DNA of 64,000 nt from Candidatus Yanofskybacteria bacterium. Lineage in GTDB: Bacteria; Patescibacteriota; Minisyncoccia; 2-02-FULL-40-12; GWA2-44-9. Positions 3,548 through 64,000 of this stretch are shown here, piece by piece. The notes under the pieces are model-generated. The model saw only the letters and a program-made list of their open reading frames with translations. It made no database searches and was not told where the DNA came from. Location: NCBI GenBank assembly GCA_903830625.1, contig CAIKUK010000015.1, forward strand, positions 37-64,036, given 5' to 3'. How positions within the stretch are numbered: position 1 is the first letter of the stretch; each line of letters starts with the position of its first letter. The position numbers and the translations under genes were made by a program.

Positions 3548-3584
3548 ACCCGCCTAAATTTTTAGAATAAAAACTTAGGCGGGT
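3548..3584. repeat. Palindromic hairpin repeat, family A, copy 1 (ACCCGCCTAAATTTTTAG-aata-AAAAACTTAGGCGGGT)
   Basis: 15-bp near-perfect inverted arms. Lies just downstream of the polA stop. The same element recurs at 17228, 28711 and 62120. Confidence 0.8.
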
Positions 3585-3611
3585 TTCGCGCTATTGTCGA
3601 CTAGACTATGC

Positions 3612-7965: not shown

Positions 7966-8070
7966 GAGCTGTCTCCTAAGCCCCGACGCGGTTTGCGTGA
8001 GGCTAAAACGAATTGATATTGAGTTTTCGAGGTACATTCCCCCCGCTCCTAATACCTACATTATACCACA

Positions 8071-19349: not shown

Positions 19350-19422
19350 AGGCCACGGTGGGGATCGCACCCACAAATAGCGGTTTTGCAGACCGCCGCG
19401 TTTACTAATTCGCCACGTGGCC
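19350..19422 (-). tRNA. tRNA-Cys (anticodon GCA)
   Basis: 73 nt. Acceptor GGCCACG/CGTGGCC, anticodon loop CTGCAAA, T-loop TGCGATC (G at position 55 is unusual). Confidence 0.65.
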
Positions 19423-25952: not shown

Positions 25953-26051
25953 TCAAATGCTCCTACAAATTACTAATCCTTACAAATATACCAATAAAAT
26001 CAGTTTCGGTTATTTGTACATTCGTGCCAATTCGTAATTAGTAGTAACTAT

Positions 26052-28710: not shown

Positions 28711-28747
28711 ACCCGCCTAAGTTTTACTTCGTAAAATTTGGGCGGGT
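28711..28747. repeat. Palindromic hairpin repeat, family A, copy 3 (ACCCGCCTAAGTTTTA-cttcg-TAAAATTTGGGCGGGT)
   Basis: Lies between the pilO-operon segment and pilB. May act as an internal terminator or attenuator. Confidence 0.75.
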
Positions 28748-28807
28748 GACAAGTTTCTAGCAACTCAGCGTCGCTATCAGATAGCTAGCTTCGTTGGGAA
28801 ACATCTC

Positions 28808-48619: not shown

Positions 48620-49405
48620 ATGGAAAAAATTATCGCCAAAAAATCTCTCGGCCAAAACTTTCTCGTCAACGAAGGTATTATTGCCAAAATTGTAAAAGCA
48701 GCCGAACTGACGGCCGAAGACACGGTATTGGAAGTTGGACCGGGCACAGGCAATCTCACCCGAGCGCTATTAGAAACTGGCGCCAGAGTGATTGCCGTGG
48801 AAAAAGATCATCGCGTCATTGAAGATTTAAACGCGGAATTCAGCTGCGCTCAAATTGAAATCATGGAAGGCGATATTTTGAATTTTAAACCGGATGAGCA
48901 TGGCCTCACGGAAGGGGAGTACAAAATCGTGGCCAATCTGCCGTACTACATTACTTCGCATTTTATCCGGACCGTTTTTGAAGAATGGCCACAGCCAGCA
49001 TTAATGATTTTGATGGTTCAAAAAGAAGTGGCTAAACGCATCGTGGCCAGACCGCCGGACATGAACCTCTTAGCTTTGTCCGTGCAGTACTACGCCAAGC
49101 CGGAAATTATCACCCCCGTCAGCCGAGGCAGTTTCCGGCCGTCGCCAACTGTGGATTCGGCGGTCATCAGGCTTATTCCGCGAACCGAATATTATCTGAC
49201 CGCCGAAAAAGAAGAATTATTTTTTGCCATTCTTAAATCGGCTTTTGGCGGAAAAAGAAAACAGCTCATCAATACGCTGCCGACAATCATCAGTAAAAAC
49301 AAGCAGGGCACCGCTGAACTCCTGAATCAAGTCGGCCTTAGTCCCGAAACCCGCCCCGAAACTGTCGACATCGCCAGCTGGCTCATTCTCGTAAATAGCC
49401 TATAA
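48620..49405 (+). CDS. rsmA: 16S rRNA (adenine1518/1519-N6)-dimethyltransferase
   Basis: SLGQNFLVNEGIIAKIV...VLEVGPGTGNLT SAM motif. KsgA family. Confidence 0.85.
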   Translation: MEKIIAKKSLGQNFLVNEGIIAKIVKAAELTAEDTVLEVGPGTGNLTRALLETGARVIAVEKDHRVIEDLNAEFSCAQIEIMEGDILNFKPDEHGLTEGEYKIVANLPYYITSHFIRTVFEEWPQPALMILMVQKEVAKRIVARPPDMNLLALSVQYYAKPEIITPVSRGSFRPSPTVDSAVIRLIPRTEYYLTAEKEELFFAILKSAFGGKRKQLINTLPTIISKNKQGTAELLNQVGLSPETRPETVDIASWLILVNSL

Positions 49406-49776
49406 TGGGGACTGTGAAAAGACTTCTTCTTGTGTTATTAATATCCCTACTAATACTCGGCGGTTTCCCCGTTTTTACTAATGCGTTAAGCCTAGGTTAT
49501 CCTTTTGGTGGAAAAATCAAAAGCGTTACAATATGCACTTGTCCCGCTTCTTTTGGTTGGCAAATAACAGTAGGACCACCACGGCCTGGCATATTTATGT
49601 ATAGTCCGTTTTTTTCTAGATTATTTTCTTATTATAAAATAATGACCCCAGGGTCATATGTTCTGGGTGTTGCTTCGGGATACATGGCTTGTCTTCCAAT
49701 AAGTACCACTGGGTGTGGTGCCCCAATCGGTCCTGGCGGACCCCTTATCCGATTTGTCGGTACATCTGTTCGGTAA
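49405..49776 (+). CDS. Small secreted Cys/Gly-rich protein
   Basis: 123 aa with a signal peptide (MGTVKRLLLVLLISLLILGGFPVFTNA) and 6 Cys. First gene of the putative secretion block. Confidence 0.45.
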   Translation: MGTVKRLLLVLLISLLILGGFPVFTNALSLGYPFGGKIKSVTICTCPASFGWQITVGPPRPGIFMYSPFFSRLFSYYKIMTPGSYVLGVASGYMACLPISTTGCGAPIGPGGPLIRFVGTSVR

Positions 49777-49893
49777 TCAGGATAGGACTCAAAAGTATCA
49801 ACATCTTGTAGTCAGCTTATACACTTAAATGGTGCTATAATTGCATTAGGCAAAAGCCCACGATTTTTGCGTAAAATAACGCAAAAAATTATC

Positions 49894-50808
49894 ATGCCAA
49901 ACAAAATTAAGATCACCTTAACTATTGTGGCTATAGTAGCTGTGTTTTCGGTTTATGAACTAGCCCAATATGTTCACACTATAGCGAACGGGAATTCTAC
50001 CCTCCAACAAGGTTCTCCTTTACCAAACCCCGATGATGATCCCGACCATGACGGACTTAACAACCAGCAAGAGGTAATTTGGGGGACTGACCCATTTAGT
50101 CCCGATAGCGACGGTGATGGCTTTAAAGACGGCGAAGAAGTAAATTCAGGCCATAATCCGCTTATCCCCGGACCAGATGATTTAATTAATGCTGACAATC
50201 TTACTCAGCAATTTTCTGAATTGACGGCATCGGGCCTTTATTCAGGCGACTTAAAACCGGAGAGTGAAAATTATGCTCAAGCACTTTCCGATATTACGAC
50301 AACGGTTGCTGATTCTGGAAAATACTTATTTACAGAGAAGCCAACTCCAACTGGATTTATCATTATCAATGGGGGGGCACAAAATGATATTCAGTATCTA
50401 AAAAATGTAACCCCTCTTATCAATGAATTTCAGGGATTATTGGCCGAACAATATGAAGGCCTTATCTCGACTCTAAATATTATTGGGGACCAAGGATTTG
50501 GCGATCCGTCGATTAAATCTTTTTTTTCCGCTCAAACATCTTCTTACGCTAATATTTTTCAGCAAGCTTCGGGCTTGAAAATACCGAAAGATTTTGAAAA
50601 AAATCATTCTCATTTTTTAAGTCTGCTTGAGCAAATGCATGACATCAGTGACGCAATTAGTAAGGGTGACACTGATCCGGTCAAGGCTTCAACCGCTCTT
50701 GGCGCTCTTGGCGATATATATCAAAATTACACTGGTTTCTTAACCGATTACCAAAAAATAATCGAAGCTCGGGGTCTTGATTTAAATTCCATCTCAAGCT
50801 CTCAATGA
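49894..50808 (+). CDS. Membrane-anchored protein with thrombospondin type-3-like Ca-binding repeats
   Basis: Start at MPNKIKITL. DPDHDGLNNQQE...DPFSPDSDGDGFKDGEE repeats. Preceded by a TGcTATAAT extended -10 and a hairpin. Confidence 0.45.
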   Translation: MPNKIKITLTIVAIVAVFSVYELAQYVHTIANGNSTLQQGSPLPNPDDDPDHDGLNNQQEVIWGTDPFSPDSDGDGFKDGEEVNSGHNPLIPGPDDLINADNLTQQFSELTASGLYSGDLKPESENYAQALSDITTTVADSGKYLFTEKPTPTGFIIINGGAQNDIQYLKNVTPLINEFQGLLAEQYEGLISTLNIIGDQGFGDPSIKSFFSAQTSSYANIFQQASGLKIPKDFEKNHSHFLSLLEQMHDISDAISKGDTDPVKASTALGALGDIYQNYTGFLTDYQKIIEARGLDLNSISSSQ

Positions 50809-52712
50809 TTAAAAAAATCTTTTCTATTGTTTTAGTGGTTGGTATTATATCGAATTGTTTTACTTTTTTATTGATACCGAACCCAGTCCGAGCTAGTGTT
50901 ACATCCAGTACTGCAAAATTCTCTGGTTGCGCAACCGGGAACATTGCCGGAACATATCTCTCAAATCAACTCGCGAATGCAGTCGCGAAATTAAAGAAAA
51001 AGATTACTAGTGTTGCCGGCAAGTTATCCAAAGTACCGGTTGACGACTCAACCACCCAAAGCAATATTGACACCACAAACATTCAATATATCACCAAAGA
51101 ATACGTCACTGATGTCATTGCTCGATGCGCAGCCCGAGTAATCCTAAACGCAATCGTCGGAAATACTTATAACATCATGCGTACGAACGGCCGGGACGGA
51201 GGAGTCACTTTTGTGCGAAATTGGGCTAATCTTCAAACGGCGGCTCAGTATCGCGGCGAAAATATTTTTCGAGCCGAATTAAGCACCGCTAAACTTTGCG
51301 GCTATCTCGCAAATGATATAAAAAAGGCCTTCGGAGTAGACCCCAAAAAACAAACGCCACTAGGTAGTAAACAGAACACCAGAACTGATTCTTTGCAAAC
51401 TTTTGGTTTGGCAGTGAACTGTACCATGCCTGCCGATTTTACCACTCAAAAATATCAACAAGATTTCGCCGGTAATGGTGGATGGGATACTTGGGCCCTA
51501 ATGATGGAGCCCCAGAACAATCCTTACGGAGTAGCTCTTCTTTCAAAAGATGAGATCCAAAAACAAAGAACGCTGCAACAAAGCGCAGATACCAATCAGG
51601 CCCTTGCGGGCAGGGGATATATTGGCACGAGTGGCAAAGGAACAACGGGAAGCTGCGCGGTTAAAAGTCCTAATAGCGCAAGTTGTATTGTCTATAATGA
51701 TATTAAAACCACCGGTAGCTATATCGCTGACAGTATGGCCGCCAGTATAAACGCCGAGTTAAGCTGGATTACTAGCGCTCAAGGTCTTGGCTCAATCATT
51801 GCGAATGCCACCGAAGTGCTTCTTAATCGTCTCCTAGATCAAGGTAACCCTGATGAAGGAAGCTATCGAGAACCCGGAGATCCTGGTATTGACTTTAGTG
51901 TTCCCAGTTCCGAAATTCCGCCATCAGAAGAATTGTGCGTAACAGATCCCCAGAAATCTACTTTAACTGATATTATCACACAGGCTCTAATAGTCCGTGA
52001 TTTAAACATAGGAGATTTTGAAGACACGTTTGGTGTAGATCGTGGAAAATTCAAGAGAGATGCAACCGCCGCTATTCTTAATAAAACATATACCGACTTG
52101 TATGACTTTGAAAAAACCATTACCGATCCGACCCAGAATGAAATTAAAAATCTCATCCAGTCGTGGGAAACAATTATTAGAGGAGCAGCCGAATCAATTA
52201 AAGGGATGCAGTGGAACACTCAAGTTGAAAAAACTGATATTGACCGTCAACTTACTGAAATCAAGAAATCTATTTCCACAATTAAGACCCAGGCTGACAG
52301 CCTCATCATATGTGGTTCGACTATCCCGCCTGATGGAGGTGGTGAACCGGCTGTTCCACCCCCCGCTGATGCCGGTAAGCATGGCGACCATACGGTTGAG
52401 GTGGCCGCGGCAAGAGATGAGCTAATCGCAGAAGGTAAACAATTCCCTGATCCTAGTGCATCTGATGAATGTTATCGTTTTGAGATTGTTAAAAGAGCGG
52501 TTCCAAAGATAGGTGACGGGGCAGGTTATCTTGGTGGCAAAAAACCGGGCCAAAATAATTGCGGTGGTTTTGCTGTTGATATCATCGCTTTCCCTGATGG
52601 ATATATTTACGATGTATTGATAGGAGATAAGAGTATGCCCGGGTGGAATCCTACTGGATGCGGAACTGTTGCAACCAATGGCACGTGCCCGGATCTTTAT
52701 CGGGCGCCTTAA
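50805..52712 (+). CDS. Large secreted protein of unknown function (635 aa)
   Basis: Signal peptide followed by a Ser/Thr/Gly-rich mature region. No recognisable catalytic motif. Confidence 0.5.
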   Translation: MIKKIFSIVLVVGIISNCFTFLLIPNPVRASVTSSTAKFSGCATGNIAGTYLSNQLANAVAKLKKKITSVAGKLSKVPVDDSTTQSNIDTTNIQYITKEYVTDVIARCAARVILNAIVGNTYNIMRTNGRDGGVTFVRNWANLQTAAQYRGENIFRAELSTAKLCGYLANDIKKAFGVDPKKQTPLGSKQNTRTDSLQTFGLAVNCTMPADFTTQKYQQDFAGNGGWDTWALMMEPQNNPYGVALLSKDEIQKQRTLQQSADTNQALAGRGYIGTSGKGTTGSCAVKSPNSASCIVYNDIKTTGSYIADSMAASINAELSWITSAQGLGSIIANATEVLLNRLLDQGNPDEGSYREPGDPGIDFSVPSSEIPPSEELCVTDPQKSTLTDIITQALIVRDLNIGDFEDTFGVDRGKFKRDATAAILNKTYTDLYDFEKTITDPTQNEIKNLIQSWETIIRGAAESIKGMQWNTQVEKTDIDRQLTEIKKSISTIKTQADSLIICGSTIPPDGGGEPAVPPPADAGKHGDHTVEVAAARDELIAEGKQFPDPSASDECYRFEIVKRAVPKIGDGAGYLGGKKPGQNNCGGFAVDIIAFPDGYIYDVLIGDKSMPGWNPTGCGTVATNGTCPDLYRAP

Positions 52713-52721
52713 ACTGAATGC

Positions 52722-54779
52722 ATGCAACTTAAACAAAGACATAAAATCATCAGCATAGTCACTCTTCTGACGTTTTTGTCTTTCTTTTTACCGACTCAAT
52801 TTGTCCATGCCGGGTGGTTCTCTCTCGTATCATCAAGTCTCTCGGATGTCATTATGTACATTTTCGCGGAGGTGTTTTTTGTAATTGGTCAACTGACAGC
52901 CATTGCCGCCAAGGCTTTGAACATGGCGGTATTTGTCCGGCCGGGGAGCAATCTTCTTGTCGTTGAGACGACTTGGAAAATCTTGCGTGATTTTTCGAAC
53001 ATGATTTTTATTGTTCTTCTAATCTATATGGCCTTTGCAACCATATTTGACCAGGGAAAATATACCTTCAAAGATATGATTGTTCGGTTTGTGATTGTCG
53101 CCGTTCTTATCAATTTCAGCTTGGTCATTGGTAATATTATTATCGATGCAGGCCAAGTTTTGACTAATATTTTCTTAGGCAGTATCGGCAATCTCGGCGA
53201 CCGGCTCGGAACATATTTAAATCCGAGCCTTCTTTTGCCGGGCGTAACAAATACGAGCAGTGCTACCTTGGCCCAATTAACAGACCTGGGGGGCGGGGGA
53301 TTTATTTCGCTTATCTTTGCGATTATTCTTTCTTTGATATTTCTTTTTAGCTTATTGGTCGCACTGGTCTTTGCGATTATCCGCACCCCGATTATATGGG
53401 CCTTGCTTATTGTTTCACCTTTAGCCTGGATGAGTCACATTCTCCCTAGTTCCAATGTTTGGTGGAAAAAGTGGTGGGGTCAATTCTGGGGCTGGAACCT
53501 GTTTCTGCCGGTTTATTTATTCTTTATGTATTTAGGTTTGGTATTTCTAAGCCAGCGCGATGTGATTATAAACGCGGTTATCCAAGCCCAAACAGCAAGT
53601 GGAACTAACCCGGCCAATGCTCCTCTCCTTGAAGGCTTAGGGAATTCACTTTCTTTTAATCTTGTCTTTTTCTATCTTTTTGCCGCTTTCGTGATGGTTG
53701 GCGGCACCTGGGCCGCCAACAAAACCACCAGTCTTATGGGTACCGGTTTTGACAAAGGCCTCGGCTGGGCCAAATGGGCGGTTAAACGTGCACCATTACC
53801 ATATATAGGAAACCTGCAAGCTGCAGAAGATGCGAGTAAGGCTCGGCGTGATCAATTTAAAAAAGAAGGTTTCAAGAATCCTTGGCTTAATAAGGTATAC
53901 GGTGGTGCTGATGCCCAATCCCGAAAATTAGCAAGAACTTCGGATAGATTTGGGGTTAGCGAAAGAAATGCAGTTGAGAAACAAGAGGCAGCGGAAATCG
54001 GAACACAGAAAGCCAAGATGAGAAACGTTAACACTAACGAGTTGAGATCAAGAATGAATTCAGGTTCAAAAACTCAGCAACTAGCAGTCAGAGAATTACT
54101 TAAAGAGCGAAACCAATTGAGTGGAGATGAAATTATTTCAACTTATCATATGTATGGTGGAGACCGCAACGAGAACGGTAGAAAGTTTATTGGCAGTGTT
54201 GATTACGGTAAATTGTCCAGCATGGAACGAGAGGCGATATTTGGAGAGAGTACAGATCCTCAAGTTCAGCAAAAAATTGCAATCGTTATGGCAGAAAAGG
54301 GGAACATGGGTGCCAATCCAGCTGACTGGCTCGAACGAATGGCAACAAACCTTTACGCTCAAAGCTCTGAAAGAATAGAATTTATCCAAAAAGCAGAAAA
54401 AGAAGACTTCATGTCAACCATAGAAGCCAAATCAAGATTGGCAAGAGCTGGTAAAATTGAAATTAAAGATGGAGGAGGAGCGATTATCACTACTGCCCCC
54501 CAGATACTTGAGGCTAGGGTAAATAAAATGAAAGCCGATGTTTTGGCTGAAGTAGATAAAAAAACATGGAATCCTGCTCTCAATCCCAACTTCCTAGCGG
54601 CAGTGCAGACGAAAGTCAACGCTTTGCAAGCATCGCAGGCCCCACAACCGGGAGGTATCGGTCCGGGTGGTGTTCCAATACCTCCAAAACCGGGCGGAGG
54701 TGAAGTTTTCAAGAATAATATATTAAAAGAGATTACTGATCCTACAAAACTTGGATTTGTAAATCAAATAGTAATCTGA
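52722..54779 (+). CDS. VirB6/TrbL-like polytopic membrane protein with a long hydrophilic C-terminal tail
   Basis: 685 aa. At least 6 TM segments in the first ~330 aa (W-rich LLIVSPLAWMSHIL, WWKKWWGQFWGWNLF), followed by a charged ~350-aa tail. Confidence 0.4.
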   Translation: MQLKQRHKIISIVTLLTFLSFFLPTQFVHAGWFSLVSSSLSDVIMYIFAEVFFVIGQLTAIAAKALNMAVFVRPGSNLLVVETTWKILRDFSNMIFIVLLIYMAFATIFDQGKYTFKDMIVRFVIVAVLINFSLVIGNIIIDAGQVLTNIFLGSIGNLGDRLGTYLNPSLLLPGVTNTSSATLAQLTDLGGGGFISLIFAIILSLIFLFSLLVALVFAIIRTPIIWALLIVSPLAWMSHILPSSNVWWKKWWGQFWGWNLFLPVYLFFMYLGLVFLSQRDVIINAVIQAQTASGTNPANAPLLEGLGNSLSFNLVFFYLFAAFVMVGGTWAANKTTSLMGTGFDKGLGWAKWAVKRAPLPYIGNLQAAEDASKARRDQFKKEGFKNPWLNKVYGGADAQSRKLARTSDRFGVSERNAVEKQEAAEIGTQKAKMRNVNTNELRSRMNSGSKTQQLAVRELLKERNQLSGDEIISTYHMYGGDRNENGRKFIGSVDYGKLSSMEREAIFGESTDPQVQQKIAIVMAEKGNMGANPADWLERMATNLYAQSSERIEFIQKAEKEDFMSTIEAKSRLARAGKIEIKDGGGAIITTAPQILEARVNKMKADVLAEVDKKTWNPALNPNFLAAVQTKVNALQASQAPQPGGIGPGGVPIPPKPGGGEVFKNNILKEITDPTKLGFVNQIVI

Positions 54780-55273
54780 TGAAAATTATCACGCCATATA
54801 ATATTGATTTGGATATCCTTTCGGCAGATGAGACTCTTTGGTCTTCTTTCGCAAAAAAATTCGTCATCTTACCTAAAGACGTGAAAGACATCCTCCTTTT
54901 AGACAATACCACGGCTTTCCTTCTAGATATCTCCCATCAGTTAACTTTGAACGAGGAGCAAACAAAAGAATTAACCAGAATAATCAGAGACGTCCTTCTG
55001 GGAGACATATTTATCAATGACATGTCCGCGACCATTTCCCAAAAACTAAACGCTGACCAACAAACAGCCCAACAAATTCGAGACAAGATTGTAAAAGAAT
55101 TGTTCGCCTCCGCTATCGAAGATATCAAAAAAATACAACAAGACAAGTTCCCGGACCGAGTTGGGCAGGGAAGTGTAAGTACAATGCCTCAACCGCCAGC
55201 TCCGCCACAAATGAAGAATGTGCCGCCAGTTAATCAGAGCAATGTTATCGATCTAAGAAACCAACCACAATAA
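54779..55273 (+). CDS. Hypothetical protein in the secretion block
   Basis: 164 aa, soluble, with a PQPPAPPQ tail. Confidence 0.4.
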   Translation: MKIITPYNIDLDILSADETLWSSFAKKFVILPKDVKDILLLDNTTAFLLDISHQLTLNEEQTKELTRIIRDVLLGDIFINDMSATISQKLNADQQTAQQIRDKIVKELFASAIEDIKKIQQDKFPDRVGQGSVSTMPQPPAPPQMKNVPPVNQSNVIDLRNQPQ

Positions 55274-55279
55274 ATAATC

Positions 55280-55603
55280 ATGAGATTCCAACTGCCACAA
55301 TTTATTGAGACGGAGATAAAGATTGTTGGGCCATTTACACTCAAGCAATTCTTGTGGGTAGTGGCGGGGGCGGTGTTTATCTTTTTGGATTTCAGTTTGT
55401 TGACCGGGATTGTCGCCATTATCATCGCTGTGCCAATTGTGGGCCTTGCCGGAGCGTTTGCGTTTCTAAGAATTGACGATATGCCGTTGATTAATTATTT
55501 CGCCAACATGCTTTCCTACTCATTCGGCTCAAAAAAATATCTTTACAGAGACGAAGGCCCTACTAATTACAAATCGGGACCGAATATACAAATGAAGAAC
55601 TGA
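55280..55603 (+). CDS. PrgI/VirB3-like small two-TM protein
   Basis: 107 aa with two hydrophobic helices after an N-terminal ~25 aa. Position and size match Gram-positive T4SS PrgI. Confidence 0.35.
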   Translation: MRFQLPQFIETEIKIVGPFTLKQFLWVVAGAVFIFLDFSLLTGIVAIIIAVPIVGLAGAFAFLRIDDMPLINYFANMLSYSFGSKKYLYRDEGPTNYKSGPNIQMKN

Positions 55604-55652
55604 CTGATTTTATTCGTATATTAGTAAGGATTAGTAATTGGTAGTGTATAAT
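55559..55652 (+). repeat. Direct repeat copy A (~90 bp), containing the AAGGATTAGTAATTGGTAGT motif and a TATAAT
   Basis: ~85% identical to 56318-56405. Spans the last 15 codons of the PrgI-like gene plus the leader of the next gene. Confidence 0.7.
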
Positions 55653-55662
55653 CTATAGAAGT

Positions 55663-56310
55663 ATGGCTAATCAATCCACCAAAGAACTCGTCGCCGTCGC
55701 CGATATCAAAGACAGTATTATCTTGCTGAAGAACGGCTCCTTGCGAGCCATGATTGAAGTTTCGGCGGTTAACTTTGAATTGCGTTCTGAAGAAGAACAA
55801 ACAGGCATTTTGCAGAACTTCCAGCGCTTTTTGAATTCGGTGGATTTTCCGCTGCAGATGATTGTCAATTCGCGCCAGCTGAACATGGACGAGTATCTCA
55901 AAACTGTTGATGCGGTCGCCGAATCGGCCACTAATGAGCTTCTTAAAATCCAGGCCATTGAATACAGCAAGTTCGTCAAAGAATTGCTGGAGCTTTCCAA
56001 TATCATGACCAAGCATTTCTATGTTGTTCTGCCGTTCTATGTCTATGAAACACCGACCAGTACCGGACTTCTGGAAACGGCCAAAAGTATTTTCAAAAAA
56101 TCCCAGACCGTCGTCCAAATCAAACCCGAACAGCTTGAAACTTATCGCACCCAGCTCATGCAACGGGCAGAATTAATCCTGGACGGACTGATCGGCATTG
56201 GTCTTAAGGCCCACCTGATGGAAGGCCAGGAAATTAATAATTTGTATTACAGTTTATATAATCCGGGCGAAAAAATGACCACCGCGGCACCTGACAAACT
56301 ACCAACTTAA
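55663..56310 (+). CDS. VirB4/TrbE-family N-terminal domain (stand-alone ORF)
   Basis: SIILLKNGSLRAMIEVSAVNFELRSEEEQ matches the conserved N-terminal block of VirB4/CagE/TrbE ATPases. 215 aa. Confidence 0.5.
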   Translation: MANQSTKELVAVADIKDSIILLKNGSLRAMIEVSAVNFELRSEEEQTGILQNFQRFLNSVDFPLQMIVNSRQLNMDEYLKTVDAVAESATNELLKIQAIEYSKFVKELLELSNIMTKHFYVVLPFYVYETPTSTGLLETAKSIFKKSQTVVQIKPEQLETYRTQLMQRAELILDGLIGIGLKAHLMEGQEINNLYYSLYNPGEKMTTAAPDKLPT

Positions 56311-56317
56311 TAAGTTT

Positions 56318-56405
56318 CCTACCAATTACAAATCCCGCGCGAATATACGAATGGGGAACTAACCGATTTTATTTGTATATTAGTAAAGATTAGTAATTAG
56401 TAGTC
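56318..56405 (+). repeat. Direct repeat copy B (~90 bp), lying between the two VirB4-derived ORFs
   Basis: Carries stop codons at its 5' end and supplies the ATG for the downstream ATPase ORF. Confidence 0.7.
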
Positions 56406-56410
56406 CAATT

Positions 56411-58162
56411 ATGCCTGACGTAACCCCACAACCCCAGACCCTACCCGAAATGCTTGCCCCGGCGGCGATGTCGGTCTCTTCGAATTATATCCAAATCGGG
56501 CCTAAATTCGCCCGGACAATTTTTCTGGCCACTTATCCGAGGTATTTAAACACGAATTGGCTTTCGCCGATTATCAATCTTGACCGCGCTTTTGATGCCG
56601 CCATATTTGTTCATCCCAAGAGTACGTCTGAAATTTTAAAACAATTGCGCGACCAGCTGGCTCGTTTGCAAGCCCAAGCGATGGAAGAAGCTTCCAAGGG
56701 CAAGGTCCGCGATCCGATTCTGGAAACAGCCATGGCCGATATTGAAGTTCTGCGCGACCAGCTTCAACAGGGAACCGATAAATTCTTTGAGCTCGGCGTT
56801 TATATCACGATTTACGAGAACAGCGTCAAAGAATTAAACGACACCGAAGGCAAGATCAAAGGCCTTTTGGAGTATCAGCTTATCTTTGCCAAGCCGGCGA
56901 CTTTCCGCATGATGGAGGGTTTTAATTCCACCCTGCCAACAGACGACGATCAACTCAATGTCCACACCTCGCTCAATACCGAACCTTTATCTTCGCTCTT
57001 CCCGTTTATTTCTTTCGACCTCACTTCCAATTCGGGTATTCTCTACGGCATCAACACTCACAATAACTCTCTGGTGTTGTTTGACCGATTTAAACTAGAA
57101 AATTACAACTCGGTCGTGTTCGGCAAATCCGGCGGCGGCAAAAGCTACACTATCAAGCTTGAGATTCTGCGCAGTCTTGTTTTTGGCACTCAAGTTTTGA
57201 TTATCGACCCGGAAGATGAATATAAATATCTGGCCGATACGGTTGGCGGATCGGCGGTTAAGATTTCCATTAATTCCGACCAACATGTTAACCCGTTTGA
57301 TTTACCGGCCCCCAAAGAAGGGGAACTCGGCGCCGATGTCTTCCGTTCGCATATTCTTGATCTTTCGGGTCTGATGAAATTGATTTTGGGCGAGCTTACC
57401 CCAGAAGAATCGGCTATTCTGGACGAAGCCCTCATTCAAACTTACGCCATTAAGGATATATCGCCCGAATCAGACTTCACTAAGCTGCCTCCGCCTGTTC
57501 TGGGCGACCTCCAGAGTATCCTGGAAGGCCTGACCGGCGCCGAATCAATGGCGACACGCCTTAAGAAGTATACTTCCGGCACGTTTGCGGGATTCTTGAA
57601 CCAGCCGACTAACGTTCCACTAGATAATCAAATGATTGTTTTCGGCATCCGCGACATGGAAGAAGAATTGCGCCCGATTGCCATGTACCTGATTTTGAAT
57701 TTCATCTGGGTCAAAGTCCGGCGCGATATTAAACAGCGCATTATTCTGGTGGACGAAGCCTGGGTGCTGATGAAGTACGAAGTCGGCGCCAACTTCTTGT
57801 CTAATATCGCCAAGCGCTGTCGTAAATATTTTACCGGCCTAACTACTATTTCCCAAGATATTCCTGATTTCCTGGCCAGTCCGCAAGGCAAAACCATTCT
57901 CACTAATTCCTCAATTCAAATTTTGATGAAGCAGTCGCCAGCGGCGATTGATATCGTTCAGCAGACTTTCAACCTCACCGATGCCGAAAAATTCTACATC
58001 CTGGAAGCCCGCGTCGGCTTTGGTCTGTTCTTCCTGGGCCAAAATCACATCGGCATCCGCATCGTTGCTTCCTACGCCGAAGACCAAATCATTACTTCCG
58101 ACCCGCGCCAAATCCTGGAAATTGAAAAAGCCAAAGAAGAATGGGCTAACATGCAAAAATAG
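56411..58162 (+). CDS. VirB4-like conjugal-transfer-type ATPase (C-terminal ATPase portion)
   Basis: Walker A VVFGKSGGGKSYT, Walker B RIILVDEAWVLM. 583 aa. Together with the upstream 215-aa ORF it totals ~800 aa, the usual VirB4 length. Confidence 0.65.
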   Translation: MPDVTPQPQTLPEMLAPAAMSVSSNYIQIGPKFARTIFLATYPRYLNTNWLSPIINLDRAFDAAIFVHPKSTSEILKQLRDQLARLQAQAMEEASKGKVRDPILETAMADIEVLRDQLQQGTDKFFELGVYITIYENSVKELNDTEGKIKGLLEYQLIFAKPATFRMMEGFNSTLPTDDDQLNVHTSLNTEPLSSLFPFISFDLTSNSGILYGINTHNNSLVLFDRFKLENYNSVVFGKSGGGKSYTIKLEILRSLVFGTQVLIIDPEDEYKYLADTVGGSAVKISINSDQHVNPFDLPAPKEGELGADVFRSHILDLSGLMKLILGELTPEESAILDEALIQTYAIKDISPESDFTKLPPPVLGDLQSILEGLTGAESMATRLKKYTSGTFAGFLNQPTNVPLDNQMIVFGIRDMEEELRPIAMYLILNFIWVKVRRDIKQRIILVDEAWVLMKYEVGANFLSNIAKRCRKYFTGLTTISQDIPDFLASPQGKTILTNSSIQILMKQSPAAIDIVQQTFNLTDAEKFYILEARVGFGLFFLGQNHIGIRIVASYAEDQIITSDPRQILEIEKAKEEWANMQK

Positions 58163-58164
58163 CC

Positions 58165-58695
58165 ATGGCCATGGAAGAAGATGGAATAAAGCACAACGAG
58201 GAAGTGCTTCGAAGTAAGAACAGGGTACCAACCGTTAATGAGCACAACGAGGAAGTGCTTAAACTTAAACTTGACCAAGAACGAACCGAGTATAATCAGC
58301 GGCTGGCTACAGAGCAGGAGGAACGAGAGCCATACTCAACAAAACCAGCAGAAAAGATGGGCTTGTTATTTTTTATTTTTGCCATGTTCTTTTGTGTTAT
58401 CGGCGATTTAATAGATTTTTTTACGGGTGGCACTATCGGTTGGCTGATTGGTTTGTTTATTGACGGTATTCTGGCCCTTATGTTTGGCTTGTCCAAAGCG
58501 GGCCGAAAACAATTTAAACGGATGGCAGTCGGTTTAATCGGCGAAAGTTTTCCGATTATTGCGACCTTGCCACTAAGAACTATTTTTTTAATCTGGTCTT
58601 TTGTCAGTTCACATAGTAAGATGGCCAGGAAAGCTGGGGATAAACTTGAACGTCAAACTAGTAAGGCGGAGCCAATCCTTAGTGTCACTGGATAA
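58165..58695 (+). CDS. Hypothetical membrane protein
   Basis: 176 aa with a charged N-terminus and three TM segments. The N-terminus contains a duplicated 19-nt segment. Confidence 0.4.
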   Translation: MAMEEDGIKHNEEVLRSKNRVPTVNEHNEEVLKLKLDQERTEYNQRLATEQEEREPYSTKPAEKMGLLFFIFAMFFCVIGDLIDFFTGGTIGWLIGLFIDGILALMFGLSKAGRKQFKRMAVGLIGESFPIIATLPLRTIFLIWSFVSSHSKMARKAGDKLERQTSKAEPILSVTG

Positions 58696-58700
58696 ATCAT

Positions 58701-59786
58701 ATGGAAGGTAGCCAAAAACAACTTCTTATCCTGATAGTAATCACGGCTTCGCTGACCTCTTTTTTGGCGGGCTATCTTTTAACCCAGCCGGCTGGACAAA
58801 GCGCCGATGTTATTCAGCAACAGCGGGGTGCTTTAATTGACCGCTTTAGCGATATTCCCGGCAATACCACCCCCACACCATTGCCTCCAGGACTGCTTCA
58901 GGCCACTGCCGAATCTTCTCTTTCAGCCACCAACTCTCCTGACAGCAACGCCGTCTTGTATTACCACCCGATCAATGGTTTTGTGTCTAAACTTGACCTT
59001 GAAACTCGTAAAAATACTATCATTTCCACCACTCAATTAAACAGCTTGACCAATGTCATCTGGTCGCCAAACAAAAACCGCGTGATTACGGTCTCCAGAA
59101 GTTCGGCTGGGCCAACATATAAATATTTTGATTATACTACCCGAGAAAATGGCTTGTTGGGCGCCAATATTAAAGATGCTGTTTTTTCTCCCGATAGCCA
59201 AAGTATAGCTTTGGTCCGTTCGGCTGGAGGCGATAGTAATATAGAGATTACCGATTTTAAAGGCAAGAACTCACAGACAATTCTAAAAACTCGACTCACT
59301 GGTATTCGTCTTTTCTGGCCAAGTAATAATATTCTGTCGTTTATCGCCAATGACGCCAATATGGGCACTCAGAGCCTTTATATTGTCACAGAAAACGGCG
59401 ACCTCAGTCAGCTTCTGGGAGGGGAGTATGGTCTGACTGTACACTGGTCTCCTGATGGATCGAAGTTATTATACTCAGTCCGAGAAAATGAGAAGGTAGT
59501 ATTGCAACTTTTTGATGTTGCTTCCAAACAATCCCAAATCTTGCCGGTACAGACCAGCGCCACAACCTGCGCTTGGCCTTTGAACCAACACTCAATAATC
59601 TGCGCCGCCGAAACCGAAGGTGAAACTTCAATCACTCAAATAAACTTGACCGACAATTCAACAAAAATATTATTTTCTAATCTGATTATCTCACCCAAGG
59701 ACGTTTTCATGTCTCACTTGGAAGACTTCGTTGTCATCACCAGCGCCGGCGACCAAAGCATCTGGGAATTGAAGCTAGCCCAATAA
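58701..59786 (+). CDS. Membrane-anchored beta-propeller-like (TolB/PD40-like) protein
   Basis: 361 aa with an N-terminal TM and repeated ...SPD(G/S)...L...motifs suggestive of PD40/WD40-like blades. Confidence 0.4.
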   Translation: MEGSQKQLLILIVITASLTSFLAGYLLTQPAGQSADVIQQQRGALIDRFSDIPGNTTPTPLPPGLLQATAESSLSATNSPDSNAVLYYHPINGFVSKLDLETRKNTIISTTQLNSLTNVIWSPNKNRVITVSRSSAGPTYKYFDYTTRENGLLGANIKDAVFSPDSQSIALVRSAGGDSNIEITDFKGKNSQTILKTRLTGIRLFWPSNNILSFIANDANMGTQSLYIVTENGDLSQLLGGEYGLTVHWSPDGSKLLYSVRENEKVVLQLFDVASKQSQILPVQTSATTCAWPLNQHSIICAAETEGETSITQINLTDNSTKILFSNLIISPKDVFMSHLEDFVVITSAGDQSIWELKLAQ

Positions 59787-62119: not shown

Positions 62120-62156
62120 ACCCGCCTAAGTTTTGCTTCGCAAAATTTAGGCGGGT
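62120..62156. repeat. Palindromic hairpin repeat, family A, copy 4 (ACCCGCCTAAGTTTTG-cttcg-CAAAATTTAGGCGGGT)
   Basis: Lies between rpmH and rnpA. Confidence 0.8.
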
Positions 62157-62195
62157 AAATATTTGCAACCAATCGCTTTGCTCTTGGGCAACTAT

Positions 62196-62626: not shown

Positions 62627-64000
62627 ATGACGAACGAAGAATTATGGAAGGCGGTACTTGGTGAAATGGAGCTCTCTCTGACTCGGGCGAACTTTATTAC
62701 CTGGTTCAAAAACACCACTATCGTCGCCCGAGACCATAGTTCTATTGTCGTTAGTGTTCCCAATGGATTTATCAAAGAATGGCTCGAAAACAAGTTCAAT
62801 AAGAAAATTCTTCAATCTATCCGGGGTCTGACACCGGAGATCAGAGAGGTAAAATACTCCATCGGCAAACCCAAAGCGGAATTGGTACGGCAGGATATAT
62901 CGCGGATTATCCTCGAAAAAGAGCTGGAAGAGAAAACAAATGTTGTCCAAACTGATACTGATGTCGACAATCTCACCAACCTTAACAAGCGCTATTCTTT
63001 TGATTCGTTTGTGGCCGGCTCCAGTAACGATATGGCCCATGCCGCTTGTTTAGCCGTCACTAAAAACTTGGGGAAGGTTTACAACCCACTTTTTATCTAC
63101 GGTAATGTCGGCTTAGGTAAGACCCACTTGATCCAGGCGGTAGGGAATCGGGTCGCAGAAAACAAAGAACGAAAAGTTTTATACCTCCAAGCCGAACGCT
63201 TTGCGGCCCAAATCGTCGAAGCGATTATGAATCGAACTATTGAGGACTTGAAAGGGCAGTACGCCCGGCTCGACCTCCTTATTCTTGACGATGTTCAGTT
63301 TATTGCCGGCAAAGTAAAGGCCCAAGAAATTGTTTTTTCCACTTTTAATGAACTCTATGGAAAGAATAAGCAAATCATTTTATCGTCGGACCGGCCACCG
63401 GCGGCTATTCCAACTTTAGAAGAACGCCTCCGATCACGCTTTGAAGGCGGGATGATTGCTGATGTCGGCGTGCCCGACCTGGAGACTCGTTTAGCCATCT
63501 TGAAACAGAAGCTGATTGGTAAAAATGTAGATTTAAATGAAGAAATACTTTCTTATATCGCCACCCATATGCAGAAAAATATTCGCGAATTGGAAGGCGC
63601 TCTTAACCGAGTGGTAGCTTTCACTCAGATCTACAACAAGGTGCCGGAAATTAAAGAAGTCAAAAATATTCTCAACACTTACCTCAGTACGCCATACCGA
63701 AAAACTTCACCTCAAGTTATACTGAAGGCGGTGGCTGATTTTTATAACATTTCCGCCGCTGACCTTATTAAAAGGAGCCGTAAAAAAGAAGTGGTTCGAC
63801 CCAGACAGGTGGCCATGTTCTTATTGCGCGATGAAACAAAGCTTTCATTTCCCGAGATTGGCCAAAAACTTGGCGGCAGAGATCACTCCACAGTTATTCA
63901 TGCTTGTGAAAAAATAAGAAACGAATCAACAATTGATGAGCCTCTTAAACAAGAACTGACTTTAATCAAAGAACGTGTGTATAACTCTTTTGATAAGTAG
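62627..64000 (+). CDS. dnaA: Chromosomal replication initiator protein DnaA
   Basis: 457 aa. AAA+ Walker A GNVGLGKTHL and a C-terminal DnaA-box-binding HTH (DHSTVIHACEKI). The stop codon is the last triplet of the window. Confidence 0.9.
   Translation: MTNEELWKAVLGEMELSLTRANFITWFKNTTIVARDHSSIVVSVPNGFIKEWLENKFNKKILQSIRGLTPEIREVKYSIGKPKAELVRQDISRIILEKELEEKTNVVQTDTDVDNLTNLNKRYSFDSFVAGSSNDMAHAACLAVTKNLGKVYNPLFIYGNVGLGKTHLIQAVGNRVAENKERKVLYLQAERFAAQIVEAIMNRTIEDLKGQYARLDLLILDDVQFIAGKVKAQEIVFSTFNELYGKNKQIILSSDRPPAAIPTLEERLRSRFEGGMIADVGVPDLETRLAILKQKLIGKNVDLNEEILSYIATHMQKNIRELEGALNRVVAFTQIYNKVPEIKEVKNILNTYLSTPYRKTSPQVILKAVADFYNISAADLIKRSRKKEVVRPRQVAMFLLRDETKLSFPEIGQKLGGRDHSTVIHACEKIRNESTIDEPLKQELTLIKERVYNSFDK

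What the first reader, a model, noticed from the sequence alone, without database searches (positions are those of the whole stretch)
49405..59786. Gram-positive-style type IV secretion-like block with a VirB4 gene split by a 90-bp duplication
The contiguous plus-strand genes are: a small Cys-rich secreted protein, a thrombospondin type-3-like repeat protein, a 635-aa secreted protein, a VirB6/TrbL-like 685-aa polytopic protein, a PrgI/VirB3-like protein, then VirB4 in two pieces (a 215-aa N-domain and a 583-aa ATPase with Walker A/B). The two VirB4-derived ORFs are separated by a copy of the ~90-bp segment that also precedes the first piece, including the last 15 codons of the PrgI-like gene and a TATAAT. 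No relaxase or VirD4 coupling protein is visible in the window. A relaxase-less T4SS adjacent to a complete type IV pilus and competence set, close to oriC, may be an uptake or host-interaction apparatus rather than a conjugation system. The internal duplication looks like a recent rearrangement that may create two independently initiated VirB4 polypeptides.
Basis: partly seen in the sequence, partly recalled or inferred. Interest (0 to 1): 0.65.

Follow-up and report, generated by a model that had tools for sequence, protein, structure and literature searches.

The report
Patescibacterial T4SS with palindromic repeat insertions
This is the ordinary, already published chromosomal type IV secretion gene cluster of ultra-small Patescibacteria; its two-gene VirB4 is ancestral, and the "90-bp duplication" is two copies of a dispersed palindromic repeat that looks like the gene-less remnant of a widespread small nuclease-gene cassette.

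Summary
The ORFs and the 87-nt repeat (55559-55645 and 56318-56404, 85% identical) are real. The explanation given for them is not.

**The split is ancestral.** ORF1 (215 aa) and ORF2 (583 aa) are colinear with full-length VirB4. All 120 best ORF1 homologues are stand-alone proteins of about 215 aa. Six relatives keep prgI, the ORF1 gene and virB4 as separate genes. This is the TrsD + VirB4 layout already described for Patescibacteria (PMC12102498). That paper also covers the missing relaxase and the position next to dnaA.

**The repeat is not a local duplication.**
- A third copy lies at 25958-26048.
- Its core occurs in 34 stretches of other genomes, always intergenic.
- A relative with 97% identical DnaA lacks both copies.

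The two copies are therefore separate insertions. One of them rewrote the last 15 codons of prgI.

**By-product.** The arms are arrays of TACNAAT heptamers. The same arms bracket GxxExxY (PD-(D/E)XK nuclease-like) genes. Of 76 GxxExxY loci fetched by protein patterns alone, 47 carry both arms. The window's repeats therefore look like gene-less miniatures of that cassette. I found no description of this link.

The T4SS part is already known. The repeat family is a modestly interesting lead.

The parts
49405..49776 (+). 123-aa protein with an N-terminal signal-like segment and 4 Cys. No family hit. First gene after ksgA in the conserved block.
   Evidence: ORF and sequence. No Pfam or NCBIfam hit. 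A small ORF occupies the same position in L038.
49867..50808 (+). 313-aa protein with bacterial thrombospondin type-3 repeats.
   Evidence: PF18884 TSP3_bac, E 1.3e-10. Syntenic in L001, L036 and L038.
50805..52712 (+). 635-aa protein with an N-terminal hydrophobic segment. Function unknown.
   Evidence: No Pfam, NCBIfam or PDB sequence hit. The syntenic gene varies in length (428-551 aa) in relatives.
52722..54779 (+). 685-aa polytopic membrane protein with a helical C-terminal domain. Candidate VirB6/TrbL analogue, weakly supported.
   Evidence: No Pfam hit for the window protein or four orthologues. 15 of 95 homologues carry a precomputed PF19590 TrbL_3 hit (weak hit in L042). The AF2 model has pLDDT 79.5. 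Foldseek gave no significant PDB hit, but TrwI/VirB6 chains recur at E 0.1-0.5.
54779..55273 (+). 164-aa conserved ORF of unknown function between the polytopic protein and prgI.
   Evidence: Present in L036, L040, L041 and L042; absent in L001 and L038. No family hit.
55280..55603 (+). PrgI/VirB3-like protein, 107 aa. Its last 15 codons (55559-55603, stop included) are encoded by element copy A.
   Evidence: PF12666, 38 bits against a cutoff of 27. The ancestral tail ..YQDETNQNDILNKQK is replaced by ..YRDEGPTNYKSGPNIQMKN. Homology to L001 stops at 55555.
55559..55645 (+). Palindromic element, copy A. It has a left arm of TACNAAT heptamers, a 21-nt centre and a right arm of ATTNGTA heptamers. 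It fills the prgI-trsD junction.
   Evidence: Absent at the orthologous junction in L001, L038, L040, L041 and L042. 77% identical to a virtual internal deletion of the L034 GxxExxY cassette.
55663..56310 (+). TrsD-like protein, 215 aa. It is the stand-alone homologue of the N-terminal part of VirB4.
   Evidence: Precomputed PF26593 TraC-like. NCBIfam hits to VirB4_plasma positions 101-266, TrsD positions 14-181 and CD1110 VirB4 positions 11-155. 38% identical to residues 1-210 of the fused 797-aa P0239. The top 12 Foldseek PDB hits are all TrwK/VirB4, from a low-confidence model.
56318..56404 (+). Palindromic element, copy B. It fills the trsD-virB4 junction.
   Evidence: Absent at the orthologous junction in L001, L038, L040, L041 and L042. 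85% identical to copy A and 73% to copy C.
56411..58162 (+). VirB4 ATPase core, 583 aa, lacking the first ~190 positions of full-length VirB4.
   Evidence: 4ag5 at E 4e-41 and TrwK residues 307-737. CD1110 VirB4 positions 188-733 of 752, 347 bits against a cutoff of 325. 52% identical to P0239 residues 229-796. Walker A and B motifs present.
58165..58695 (+). 176-aa protein with C-terminal hydrophobic segments. Syntenic downstream partner of virB4.
   Evidence: An ORF of 84-191 aa sits in the same position in all relatives. No family hit.
58701..59786 (+). 361-aa TolB-like beta-propeller protein. Last gene of the syntenic block.
   Evidence: TIGR02800 TolB propeller, E 1.8e-11 but below its cutoff; PD40 repeat. 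Syntenic in all relatives.
25958..26048 (-). Palindromic element, copy C, between the divergent comFC-like (25197-25904, minus strand) and pilM (26052-27101, plus strand) genes.
   Evidence: Flanking genes identified.

Best explanation
**The gene block.** Window 49.4-59.8 kb is the conserved chromosomal type IV secretion locus of a Paceibacteria-type Patescibacterium. It sits between uvrD-ksgA and jag-yidC-dnaA. It contains:
- a PrgI/VirB3-like protein;
- a stand-alone TrsD-like protein, homologous to the N-terminal part of VirB4;
- a VirB4 ATPase core;
- a weakly VirB6-like polytopic protein;
- several lineage-specific secreted or membrane proteins.

**The split.** The two-gene VirB4 is the normal, ancestral state of this lineage. 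By inference, the TrsD-like protein supplies in trans the VirB3- and membrane-proximal N-terminal part that full-length VirB4 carries in cis. Also by inference from published Tn-seq in a Saccharibacterium, the machine serves epibiotic host interaction rather than conjugation.

**The repeat.** The "90-bp duplication" is two separate insertions of an 87-nt palindromic element into the prgI-trsD and trsD-virB4 junctions. In close relatives these junctions are tight: 2-4 nt in most, 38 nt in L041, an overlap in L038. A third copy lies at the comFC-pilM junction. The first insertion replaced the C-terminal tail of PrgI with element-encoded residues.

**Origin of the element.** Its arms are inverted arrays of four TACNAAT heptamers ending in CTAC...GTAG. 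The same arms bracket about 0.47-kb cassettes that encode a GxxExxY (PD-(D/E)XK nuclease-like) protein. The window's copies are therefore most likely ORF-less, MITE-like derivatives of that cassette, formed by internal deletion.

**What is shown and what is inferred.** Shown: homology, synteny, presence/absence of the element, and the association of the arms with GxxExxY genes. Inferred: how the element moves, its effect on expression of the operon, and the T4SS substrate.
For: **The split is ancestral**
- The best 120 of 653 ORF1 homologues are all 199-228 aa.
- Of 2016 cluster representatives hit, 148 of the top 150 are not full-length VirB4; only two are fused, at 797 and 898 aa.
- The fused P0239 aligns colinearly with ORF1 and then ORF2.
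- NCBIfam places ORF1 at VirB4 positions 11-155 and ORF2 at positions 188-733.
- The top Foldseek hits for ORF1 are all TrwK/VirB4.
- Six relatives keep separate prgI, trsD-like and virB4 genes in the same uvrD-ksgA...yidC-dnaA context.
- PMC12102498 reports 2,272 TrsD homologues in Patescibacteria, 1,664 of them next to virB4. It also reports the lack of relaxases and the proximity to dnaA, dnaN, ksgA, rnpA and rpmH.

**The repeat is a dispersed element**
- There is a third copy in the window.
- The 24-nt core gives 34 stretches in species-representative genomes of many Patescibacteria classes and of some Bacteroidota.
- All 41 instances are intergenic, and most lie within about 20 nt of a flanking ORF end.
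- L001, whose DnaA is 97% identical, lacks both copies. Its homology to the window breaks exactly at the element borders.
- The PrgI tail is replaced.

**Link to the GxxExxY cassette**
- The arms bracket TIGR04256 genes in L034, L032 and L015.
- I fetched 80 GxxExxY loci by protein patterns alone; 76 have at least 100 nt on both sides. Of these:
  - 54 have at least 2 TACNAAT heptamers upstream (0 in the wrong orientation);
  - 50 have at least 2 ATTNGTA heptamers downstream (3 in the wrong orientation);
  - 47 have both.
- Heptamer density is about 20 per kb next to the gene, against 0.5-0.9 per kb further out.
- The arms abut or overlap the start and stop codons.
- Copy A is 77% identical to a virtual internal deletion of the L034 cassette, including a vestigial ATGAAG start.
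Against: - No target-site duplication was seen, and no known transposase lies near the arms. The way the element moves is therefore open.
- The insertion sites differ from L001 by more than a clean insertion; a few flanking bases differ as well.
- The GxxExxY gene could be a passenger rather than the mobilising enzyme.
- No GxxExxY gene lies in the 64-kb window.
- The VirB6 assignment is weak.
- The ORF1 structural model has low confidence, pLDDT 55.5.
- The T4SS function is extrapolated from a different class (Saccharimonadia).
- Only three copies of the element are visible because only 64 kb of the genome is available.
Confidence: 0.85

Rival explanations
1. A recent local duplication of about 90 bp, comprising the end of prgI and the leader of virB4, was inserted into a previously intact virB4. 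It split the gene into two independently initiated polypeptides.
For: Two direct copies flank ORF1. ORF1 and ORF2 are colinear with VirB4.
Against: - The split occurs without the repeat in every relative examined and in all 120 best homologues.
- The copies are only 85% identical.
- A third copy lies 29.6 kb away, and the family occurs in many genomes.
- The prgI tail is the derived, element-encoded part, not the source of the repeat.
Confidence: 0.02
2. Assembly artefact. The second copy is a mis-assembly of a repeat.
For: The sequence is a metagenome-assembled contig, and repeats can be mis-joined.
Against: - The copies differ at 13 of 87 positions.
- The flanking coding sequence is continuous and syntenic with relatives.
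- A Logan assembly of ERR4194640 is 100% identical over 8,070 nt.
Confidence: 0.01
3. The palindromic elements are host cis-regulatory modules. They could be operator arrays for a DNA-binding protein, promoters, or mRNA hairpins that set the PrgI:TrsD:VirB4 ratio. On this reading they were recruited at these junctions for a function and are not selfish insertions.
For: - Each copy folds into a long hairpin, z about -2.7 to -3.1.
- Heptamer arrays look like protein-binding sites.
- The elements sit exactly between genes, often 5-20 nt before a start codon.
- The variable heptamer positions pair somewhat more often than chance, 21 of 48 against 14.2 +/- 3.0.
Against: - There is no orientation preference relative to flanking genes, about 19 against 13.
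- The flanking genes are functionally diverse.
- Very close relatives lack the elements at the same junctions.
- Promoter-like and terminator-like sites are not enriched.
- Rfam gave nothing.
- More than half of the variable positions do not pair.
- This reading does not exclude a selfish origin.
Confidence: 0.1
4. The element is mobilised by a conventional enzyme encoded elsewhere, for example a Y1/RAYT-type or DDE transposase. GxxExxY genes are merely frequent passengers or preferred neighbours of the arms.
For: - The CTAC...GTAG termini and the lack of target duplications recall REP/REPIN-RAYT systems (the comparison is from my own knowledge).
- No nuclease activity has been shown for GxxExxY proteins; PF13366 is listed as 'function unknown' in PMC3424549.
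Against: - No transposase family appeared among the 52 flanking ORFs, although only the top 25 families were shown.
- The arms abut or overlap the start and stop codons of the GxxExxY ORF in a fixed orientation in about 62% of independently fetched loci. That is the signature of one unit, not of chance neighbours.
Confidence: 0.2

Closest known systems
Patescibacteria-clade, MPF_FATA-related chromosomal T4SS (Quinonero-Coronel et al. 2025, PMC12102498; Wang et al. 2023 as cited in PMC12857230)
   Same: VirB4, an adjacent TrsD homologue and PrgI/VirB3. No relaxase or coupling protein nearby. Location next to ksgA, rnpA, rpmH, dnaA and dnaN. Paceibacteria-type synteny.
   Different: Nothing essential. 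This genome additionally carries palindromic elements in two intercistronic junctions and an element-encoded PrgI tail. No VirB2-like pilin was identified here, but I ran no dedicated pilin profile.
TrsD + TrsE of staphylococcal plasmid pGO1 (TraD/TraE of pSK41), the MPF_FATA subclass with a separate protein homologous to the VirB4 N-terminus
   Same: A protein of about 200 aa, homologous to the VirB4 N-terminal portion, is encoded immediately upstream of the VirB4 ATPase.
   Different: ORF1 scores only 30.8 bits against NCBIfam TrsD (cutoff 200), so it is a distant relative and not a member by the curated threshold. The context is chromosomal and lacks a relaxase rather than being a conjugative plasmid.
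Bacterial MITEs and other small palindromic intergenic repeats (Correia elements, RUP, ERIC, REPINs; general knowledge and PMC10969869)
   Same: Short (about 90 nt), with inverted terminal arms. Multi-copy, intergenic, variable centre. Present or absent at orthologous sites. Can extend or replace the ends of ORFs.
   Different: The arms are arrays of four TACNAAT heptamers with a free fourth base. No target-site duplication was seen. The full-length partner carries a ~131-aa PD-(D/E)XK-like gene instead of a recognised transposase.
GxxExxY protein family (TIGR04256; Pfam PF13366 PDDEXK_3), listed as function unknown with 'multiple transfers' in PMC3424549
   Same: The ORFs bracketed by the arms are clear members, at 104-107 bits against a cutoff of 35.
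   Different: The window holds no GxxExxY gene, only the arms. I found no published link between this family and heptamer-array inverted ends or ORF-less derivatives in the held library.
REP/REPIN-RAYT systems (from my own knowledge)
   Same: Palindromic extragenic repeats with a conserved GTAG-type terminus and no target duplication, associated with a small single-gene partner.
   Different: The arms are AT-rich direct heptamer arrays, not GC-rich 20-40-nt hairpins. The partner is PD-(D/E)XK-like, not a Y1 transposase.

Membership tests
Patescibacteria-clade MPF_FATA-like T4SS | VirB4-family ATPase with Walker A and B motifs | tested here: met
   4ag5 at E 4e-41. NF045971 at 347 bits against a cutoff of 325. 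GKSGGGKS and IILVDE motifs.
Patescibacteria-clade MPF_FATA-like T4SS | VirB3/PrgI homologue next to virB4 | tested here: met
   PF12666, 38 bits against a cutoff of 27.
Patescibacteria-clade MPF_FATA-like T4SS | TrsD-like protein (VirB4 N-terminal homologue) encoded next to virB4 | tested here: met
.
Patescibacteria-clade MPF_FATA-like T4SS | VirB6/PrgH-like polytopic membrane protein | tested here: inconclusive
   No Pfam hit in the window protein or four orthologues. PF19590 in 15 of 95 homologues. TrwI/VirB6 chains appear only at E 0.1-0.5.
Patescibacteria-clade MPF_FATA-like T4SS | No relaxase or VirD4-type coupling protein near virB4 | tested here: met
   No such Pfam or NCBIfam hit in the ORFs scanned across the 64-kb window. 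The rest of the genome was not seen. ORFs 12181-13563 and 7177-8037 have no family.
Patescibacteria-clade MPF_FATA-like T4SS | Chromosomal position near dnaA, dnaN, ksgA, rnpA and rpmH | tested here: met
   ksgA at 48620-49405. DnaA at 62627-64000, 97% identical to the L001 DnaA. Synteny. Literature.
Patescibacteria-clade MPF_FATA-like T4SS | Needed for epibiotic growth; substrate other than conjugative DNA | not testable with these tools
   Known only from Tn-seq in Ca. Southlakia epibionticum (PMC12857230).
NCBIfam TrsD/TraD subfamily (NF041427) | Score at or above the curated cutoff (200 bits) | tested here: not met
   30.8 bits, E 2.3e-7, profile positions 14-181 of 201. ORF1 is homologous but not a member by the curated threshold.
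Gene split by a recent local duplication | Close relatives carry the intact single gene | tested here: not met
   All relatives have two genes.
Gene split by a recent local duplication | Exactly two, near-identical, local copies of the duplicated segment | tested here: not met
   85% identity. A third copy 29.6 kb away. 34 stretches in other genomes.
MITE-like non-autonomous element | Short, multi-copy and dispersed, with terminal inverted repeats | tested here: met
MITE-like non-autonomous element | Presence/absence polymorphism at orthologous sites | tested here: met
   Window against L001, L038, L040, L041 and L042.
MITE-like non-autonomous element | Target-site duplication | tested here: not met
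   The flanks of 18 full elements show no consistent duplication.
MITE-like non-autonomous element | A longer, gene-bearing element with the same ends | tested here: met
   GxxExxY cassettes. The gene is not a recognised transposase.
MITE-like non-autonomous element | Demonstrated transposition | not testable with these tools
   Needs population or strain-resolved data, or an experiment.
REP/REPIN-RAYT | Associated Y1 (RAYT) transposase gene flanked by the repeats | tested here: not met
   The bracketed gene is TIGR04256 GxxExxY. No Y1 family appeared among the top families of flanking ORFs.
Rfam structured RNA | Match to any curated covariance model | tested here: not met
   Only tRNAs reached gathering score. 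Nothing better than E 2 over the repeat region.

The most novel reading that the evidence does not exclude
GxxExxY genes (TIGR04256 / PF13366) belong to a widespread family with no assigned function. They may be the autonomous form of a compact mobile cassette of about 0.47 kb. Its ends are inverted arrays of TACNAAT heptamers. The cassette occurs in more than one phylum (many Patescibacteria classes, some Bacteroidota). The small PD-(D/E)XK nuclease would recognise the heptamer arrays and drive insertion flush between genes. ORF-less miniatures such as the three in this window would then spread in trans, even into the intercistronic junctions of the T4SS operon, whose homologue is reported essential in Saccharibacteria, and rewrite gene ends as they go.
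Probability: 0.4. Interest if true: 0.6.

Novelty: new member of a known kind. Interest (0 to 1): 0.4.

Why it matters
**For the finding as stated**, it matters little. The relaxase-less T4SS next to oriC and its TrsD + VirB4 layout are published features of Patescibacteria. This window is one more example.

**The repeat has more value.**
- It warns that "duplications" inside compact CPR operons can be insertions of a dispersed palindromic element. Such insertions separate tightly packed, possibly translationally coupled genes and replace protein tails.
- It connects that element to GxxExxY genes. This gives a testable hypothesis for a large protein family without a known function: a nuclease that binds TACNAAT arrays and mobilises its own cassette.
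- It offers a possible marker of DNA exchange between Patescibacteria and Bacteroidota.

Tried and rejected
- **Rfam.** The gathering search of the whole window and the E-value search of 55450-56500 found only tRNAs and noise.
- **Promoter and terminator scan of 54.7-56.7 kb.** No excess over shuffles, and nothing inside the repeats.
- **Viral contigs.** No match to the element core.
- **PDB sequence searches.** Nothing for ORF1 alone, for the 635-aa protein or for a profile of the 685-aa protein.
- **Structure prediction.** I redid it with database homologues.
- **ORF1 model.** Low confidence, pLDDT 55.5. I use its VirB4 fold hits only as supporting evidence.
- **Is the element a gene-specific regulator?** Its orientation relative to neighbouring genes shows no clear bias. 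The flanking genes are diverse housekeeping genes.
- **Is the hairpin kept by compensatory changes?** There is only a modest excess of pairing at the variable positions. My first run used one wrong index, which I corrected.
- **Transposase between paired arms (L022, L008).** None; the intervening genes are pseudopilins and a beta-CASP RNase.
- **Are the Bacteroidota hits mis-binned CPR contigs?** No. They carry T9SS sorting domains.
- **Literature.** Searches for a described CPR palindromic repeat or for GxxExxY mobility found nothing relevant in the held library.

Full report
**1. The observation**

The repeat is real. It spans 55559-55645 and 56318-56404, is 87 nt long, 85% identical, and the copies start 759 nt apart. 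Its 24-nt core had no chance match in shuffled sequence. Copy A covers the last 15 codons, stop included, of the PrgI-like gene.

Three details are wrong or missing:
- The TATAAT at 55647-55652 lies just outside the repeat and has no counterpart after copy B.
- A 164-aa ORF at 54779-55273 was omitted.
- Most importantly, the repeat is not confined to this locus. A third copy lies at 25958-26048 on the minus strand, between a comFC-like gene and pilM.

**2. The genes**

- *Family matches.* Pfam confirms TSP3 repeats in the 313-aa protein and PrgI in the 107-aa protein.
- *ORF2 (583 aa)* is a VirB4 ATPase.
  - It matches the Thermoanaerobacter VirB4 C-terminal domain (4ag5) at E 4e-41 and TrwK residues 307-737.
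  - It matches the NCBIfam CD1110-type VirB4 at 347 bits, above the cutoff of 325, on profile positions 188-733 of 752.
  - Walker A and B motifs are present.
- *ORF1 (215 aa)* carries the precomputed Pfam family PF26593 'TraC-like'.
  - It hits the N-terminal positions of several VirB4 models: CD1110 positions 11-155 and Mbov_0397 positions 101-266.
  - It hits the TrsD/TraD model at positions 14-181, E 2e-7, below the cutoff.
- *Colinearity.* A fused relative of 797 aa (P0239) aligns with ORF1 over residues 1-210 (38% identity) and with ORF2 over residues 229-796 (52% identity).
- *Fold.* A low-confidence AF2 model of ORF1 (pLDDT 55.5) still gave TrwK/VirB4 chains as its 12 best PDB matches, followed by a sharp drop to unrelated proteins.
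- *Conclusion.* The two ORFs do correspond to contiguous parts of VirB4.
- *The 685-aa polytopic protein* is only weakly VirB6/TrbL-like.
  - It and four orthologues have no Pfam hit.
  - 15 of 95 homologues carry a TrbL_3 hit.
  - TrwI/VirB6 appears among its fold matches only at E 0.1-0.5.

**3. The split is ancestral**

- All 120 best ORF1 homologues, down to 63% identity and from several Patescibacteria lineages, are stand-alone proteins of 199-228 aa.
- An exhaustive search of cluster representatives gave 2016 hits. Only two of the best 150 are fused, full-length proteins.
- In relatives L001, L040 and L042, prgI, the trsD-like gene and virB4 are separate genes 2-4 nt apart. L041 has a 38-nt gap and L038 an overlap.
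- All lie in the same context: uvrD, ksgA, the secretion genes, jag, yidC, (rnpA, rpmH), dnaA, dnaN.
- The reading frames of the two genes relative to each other differ between relatives. Programmed frameshifting is therefore not an explanation.

This is the arrangement described by Quinonero-Coronel et al. 2025 (PMC12102498):
- It is the most abundant T4SS component in Patescibacteria, with 2,272 homologues, 1,664 of them next to virB4.
- It is otherwise known from the pGO1 subclass of MPF_FATA systems.

The same paper reports the general lack of relaxases. It also reports that coupling proteins are rarely near virB4, and that the locus lies close to dnaA, dnaN, ksgA, rnpA and rpmH. A 2025 review summarises the Tn-seq evidence that the T4SS and the type IV pili are essential for epibiotic growth of a Saccharibacterium (PMC12857230).

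Within the window I found no relaxase or coupling-protein family in any large ORF that I scanned. The pilus and competence genes are present. They lie about 13 kb away, behind ligA, gatA, cca, uvrD and ksgA.

**4. What the repeat is**

- *Shape.* Each copy is an imperfect palindrome that folds into a long hairpin.
- *Spread.* The 24-nt core GTATATTNGTAANGATTAGTAATT occurs in 34 stretches of species-representative genomes. Almost all are Patescibacteria of many classes.
  - Several copies occur in single genomes: nine stretches of the one MAG DATEBW01.
  - Three Bacteroidota MAGs also carry it. Their contigs are genuine, because they encode T9SS sorting domains.
- *Position.* All 41 instances are intergenic. 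Most lie within about 20 nt of a flanking ORF end, without a clear orientation preference. They sit beside functionally diverse genes. In L022 they lie between pseudopilin genes.
- *Anatomy.* Left arm CTACGAATTACGAATnnnTACnAATATACGAA, a variable centre of 2-120 nt, right arm TTCGTATATTCGTAAnGATTAGTAATTnGTAG. Each arm is thus four TACNAAT heptamers with a free fourth base. The free positions pair only slightly more often than chance. This argues for recognition as a DNA motif rather than a conserved RNA stem.
- *Negative results.* Rfam has nothing. Promoter-like and terminator-like sites are not enriched. No target-site duplication is apparent.

**5. The two copies are insertions**

- L001 is very close to the window: DnaA is 97% identical and ORF1 94%. 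It has neither copy.
- Its nucleotide homology to the window stops at 55555, resumes at 55659, stops again at 56303 and resumes at 56427 (alignments).
- The conserved PrgI tail of relatives (..YQDETNQNDILNKQK) is replaced in the window by ..YRDEGPTNYKSGPNIQMKN, which is read from the element.
- Copies A and B are closer to each other (85%) than to copy C (79% and 73%). They probably derive from the same source copy within this genome.
- L036/L037, with 77% ORF1 identity, carry a different 138-nt palindrome in the trsD-virB4 gap. This junction has therefore been invaded more than once.
- An assembly artefact is excluded by the divergence of the copies and by an identical Logan assembly.

**6. 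Where the element comes from**

- In L034 the two arms lie 445 nt apart and enclose a 135-aa ORF. The left arm runs into its ATG, and its stop codon lies in the right arm.
- L032 and L015 show the same arrangement.
- The ORFs are clear GxxExxY proteins (TIGR04256, 104-107 bits against a cutoff of 35; Pfam PDDEXK_3).
- As an independent test I fetched 80 metagenome loci using only protein patterns of this family. 76 have at least 100 nt on both sides. Of these:
  - 54 have at least two TACNAAT heptamers within 110 nt upstream (none in the opposite orientation);
  - 50 have at least two ATTNGTA heptamers within 110 nt downstream (three in the opposite orientation);
  - 47 have both.
- Heptamer density is about 20 per kb next to the gene, against 0.5-0.9 per kb further out.
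- The last left heptamer typically ends 0-5 nt before the ATG or overlaps it. The stop codon often lies inside the first right heptamer. The median distance between the outermost heptamers is 463 nt.
- A virtual internal deletion of the L034 cassette, keeping 42 nt on the left and 46 nt on the right, is 77% identical to window copy A. The match includes a vestigial ATGAAG start.

The window's repeats are therefore best read as ORF-less miniatures of a GxxExxY cassette. The window itself has no GxxExxY gene.

PF13366 is listed as 'function unknown', with 'multiple transfers' between divisions, in the PD-(D/E)XK survey (PMC3424549). I found no paper in the held library that links it to such ends.

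**7. How it most likely works**

- *Shown:* the locus is a member of the Patescibacteria T4SS type, with a separately encoded N-terminal VirB4 module.
- *Inferred:* the TrsD-like protein assembles with the VirB4 core and PrgI/VirB3 at the membrane. It would supply in trans what full-length VirB4 has in cis. The machine would serve host interaction rather than conjugation.
- *Shown:* two element insertions separated three genes that are almost contiguous in relatives, and one changed the PrgI tail.
- *Inferred:* the insertions abolish any translational coupling and add hairpins to the transcript. All ORFs remain intact, so the locus is probably functional.
- *Inferred:* two direct copies, 85% identical, now flank the trsD-like gene. 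They could in principle mediate its deletion.
- *Open:* how the element moves. The most economical hypothesis is that the GxxExxY nuclease recognises the heptamer arrays. A separate transposase remains possible.

**8. Verdict**

The T4SS, its missing relaxase, its position near oriC and its two-gene VirB4 are already known. The proposed 'split by duplication' is refuted. The repeat is a new family of a known kind of element (a small palindromic, MITE-like repeat). Its link to GxxExxY genes appears undescribed and deserves follow-up.

Noticed in passing
L034:5024-5472; L032:4609-5098 (minus strand); L015:5259-5738 (minus strand); loci L043-L122: GxxExxY genes (TIGR04256 / PDDEXK_3, about 131 aa) sit in compact cassettes of about 0.47 kb. 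Their ends are inverted arrays of TACNAAT heptamers that abut or overlap the start and stop codons. Of 76 independently fetched loci, 47 carry both arms. The window's 87-nt repeats share these arms.
   Followed up: yes
L019, L020, L028, L029 (Bacteroidota MAG contigs): The same arm core, and in L028 and L029 complete short elements, occur in genuine Bacteroidota contigs that encode T9SS Por_Secre_tail proteins. The element family therefore spans at least two phyla. This could reflect horizontal spread.
   Followed up: partly
L036:8657-8794 (same in L037): A different 138-nt palindrome fills the trsD-virB4 gap of a relative with 77% ORF1 identity. Its outer arms are GGATTTACAACCTTAGCCC... and ...GGGCTAAGGTTGTAAATCC. 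The same junction has therefore been invaded independently by another element.
   Followed up: partly
window 3548-3600, 28711-28763, 62120-62172: A second repeat family: a GC-rich hairpin, ACCCGCCTAAGTTTT...AAAATTTAGGCGGGT. It occurs at three intergenic sites: fpg/polA, pilO/pilB and upstream of dnaA. It could be a terminator-like or REP-like element.
   Followed up: no
window 19405-20157 (minus strand), 23111-24112 (minus strand), 44882-45772 (plus strand): Two free-standing LAGLIDADG-domain ORFs lie on either side of infB (20223-21752), beside two tRNA genes. An ORF with an HNH homing-endonuclease-associated repeat lies before uvrD. There are several selfish-endonuclease-like genes in 64 kb.
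   Followed up: no
window 58190-58209 and 58241-58260: A perfect 20-nt direct repeat, 51 nt apart, lies inside the 176-aa ORF downstream of virB4. It encodes a repeated HNEEVL peptide.
   Followed up: no
L041:2080-2331 (minus strand): One relative has a HicB-like antitoxin gene inserted between the 168-aa ORF and prgI. This is another sign that the operon tolerates insertions.
   Followed up: no
L001:5632-7997, L038:5372-8001 and window 54779-55273: The 164-aa ORF between the polytopic protein and prgI is absent from the very close relative L001 and from L038. It is present in L036, L040, L041 and L042. It is therefore a variable component of the locus.
   Followed up: no
L004 / L023 (CAYPRN01) and L015 (CAZPVP01): MAGs labelled 'uncultured Gammaproteobacteria' carry the element. 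Contig CAYPRN010000003.1 is 32,685 nt long, the same length as the longest contig recorded for the Paceibacterota TrsD homologue P0057. The taxonomic label is therefore probably wrong.
   Followed up: partly
window 12181-13563 (minus strand) and 7177-8037 (minus strand): ORFs of 460 aa and 286 aa have no Pfam hit. The 460-aa ORF also has no PDB sequence match.
   Followed up: partly
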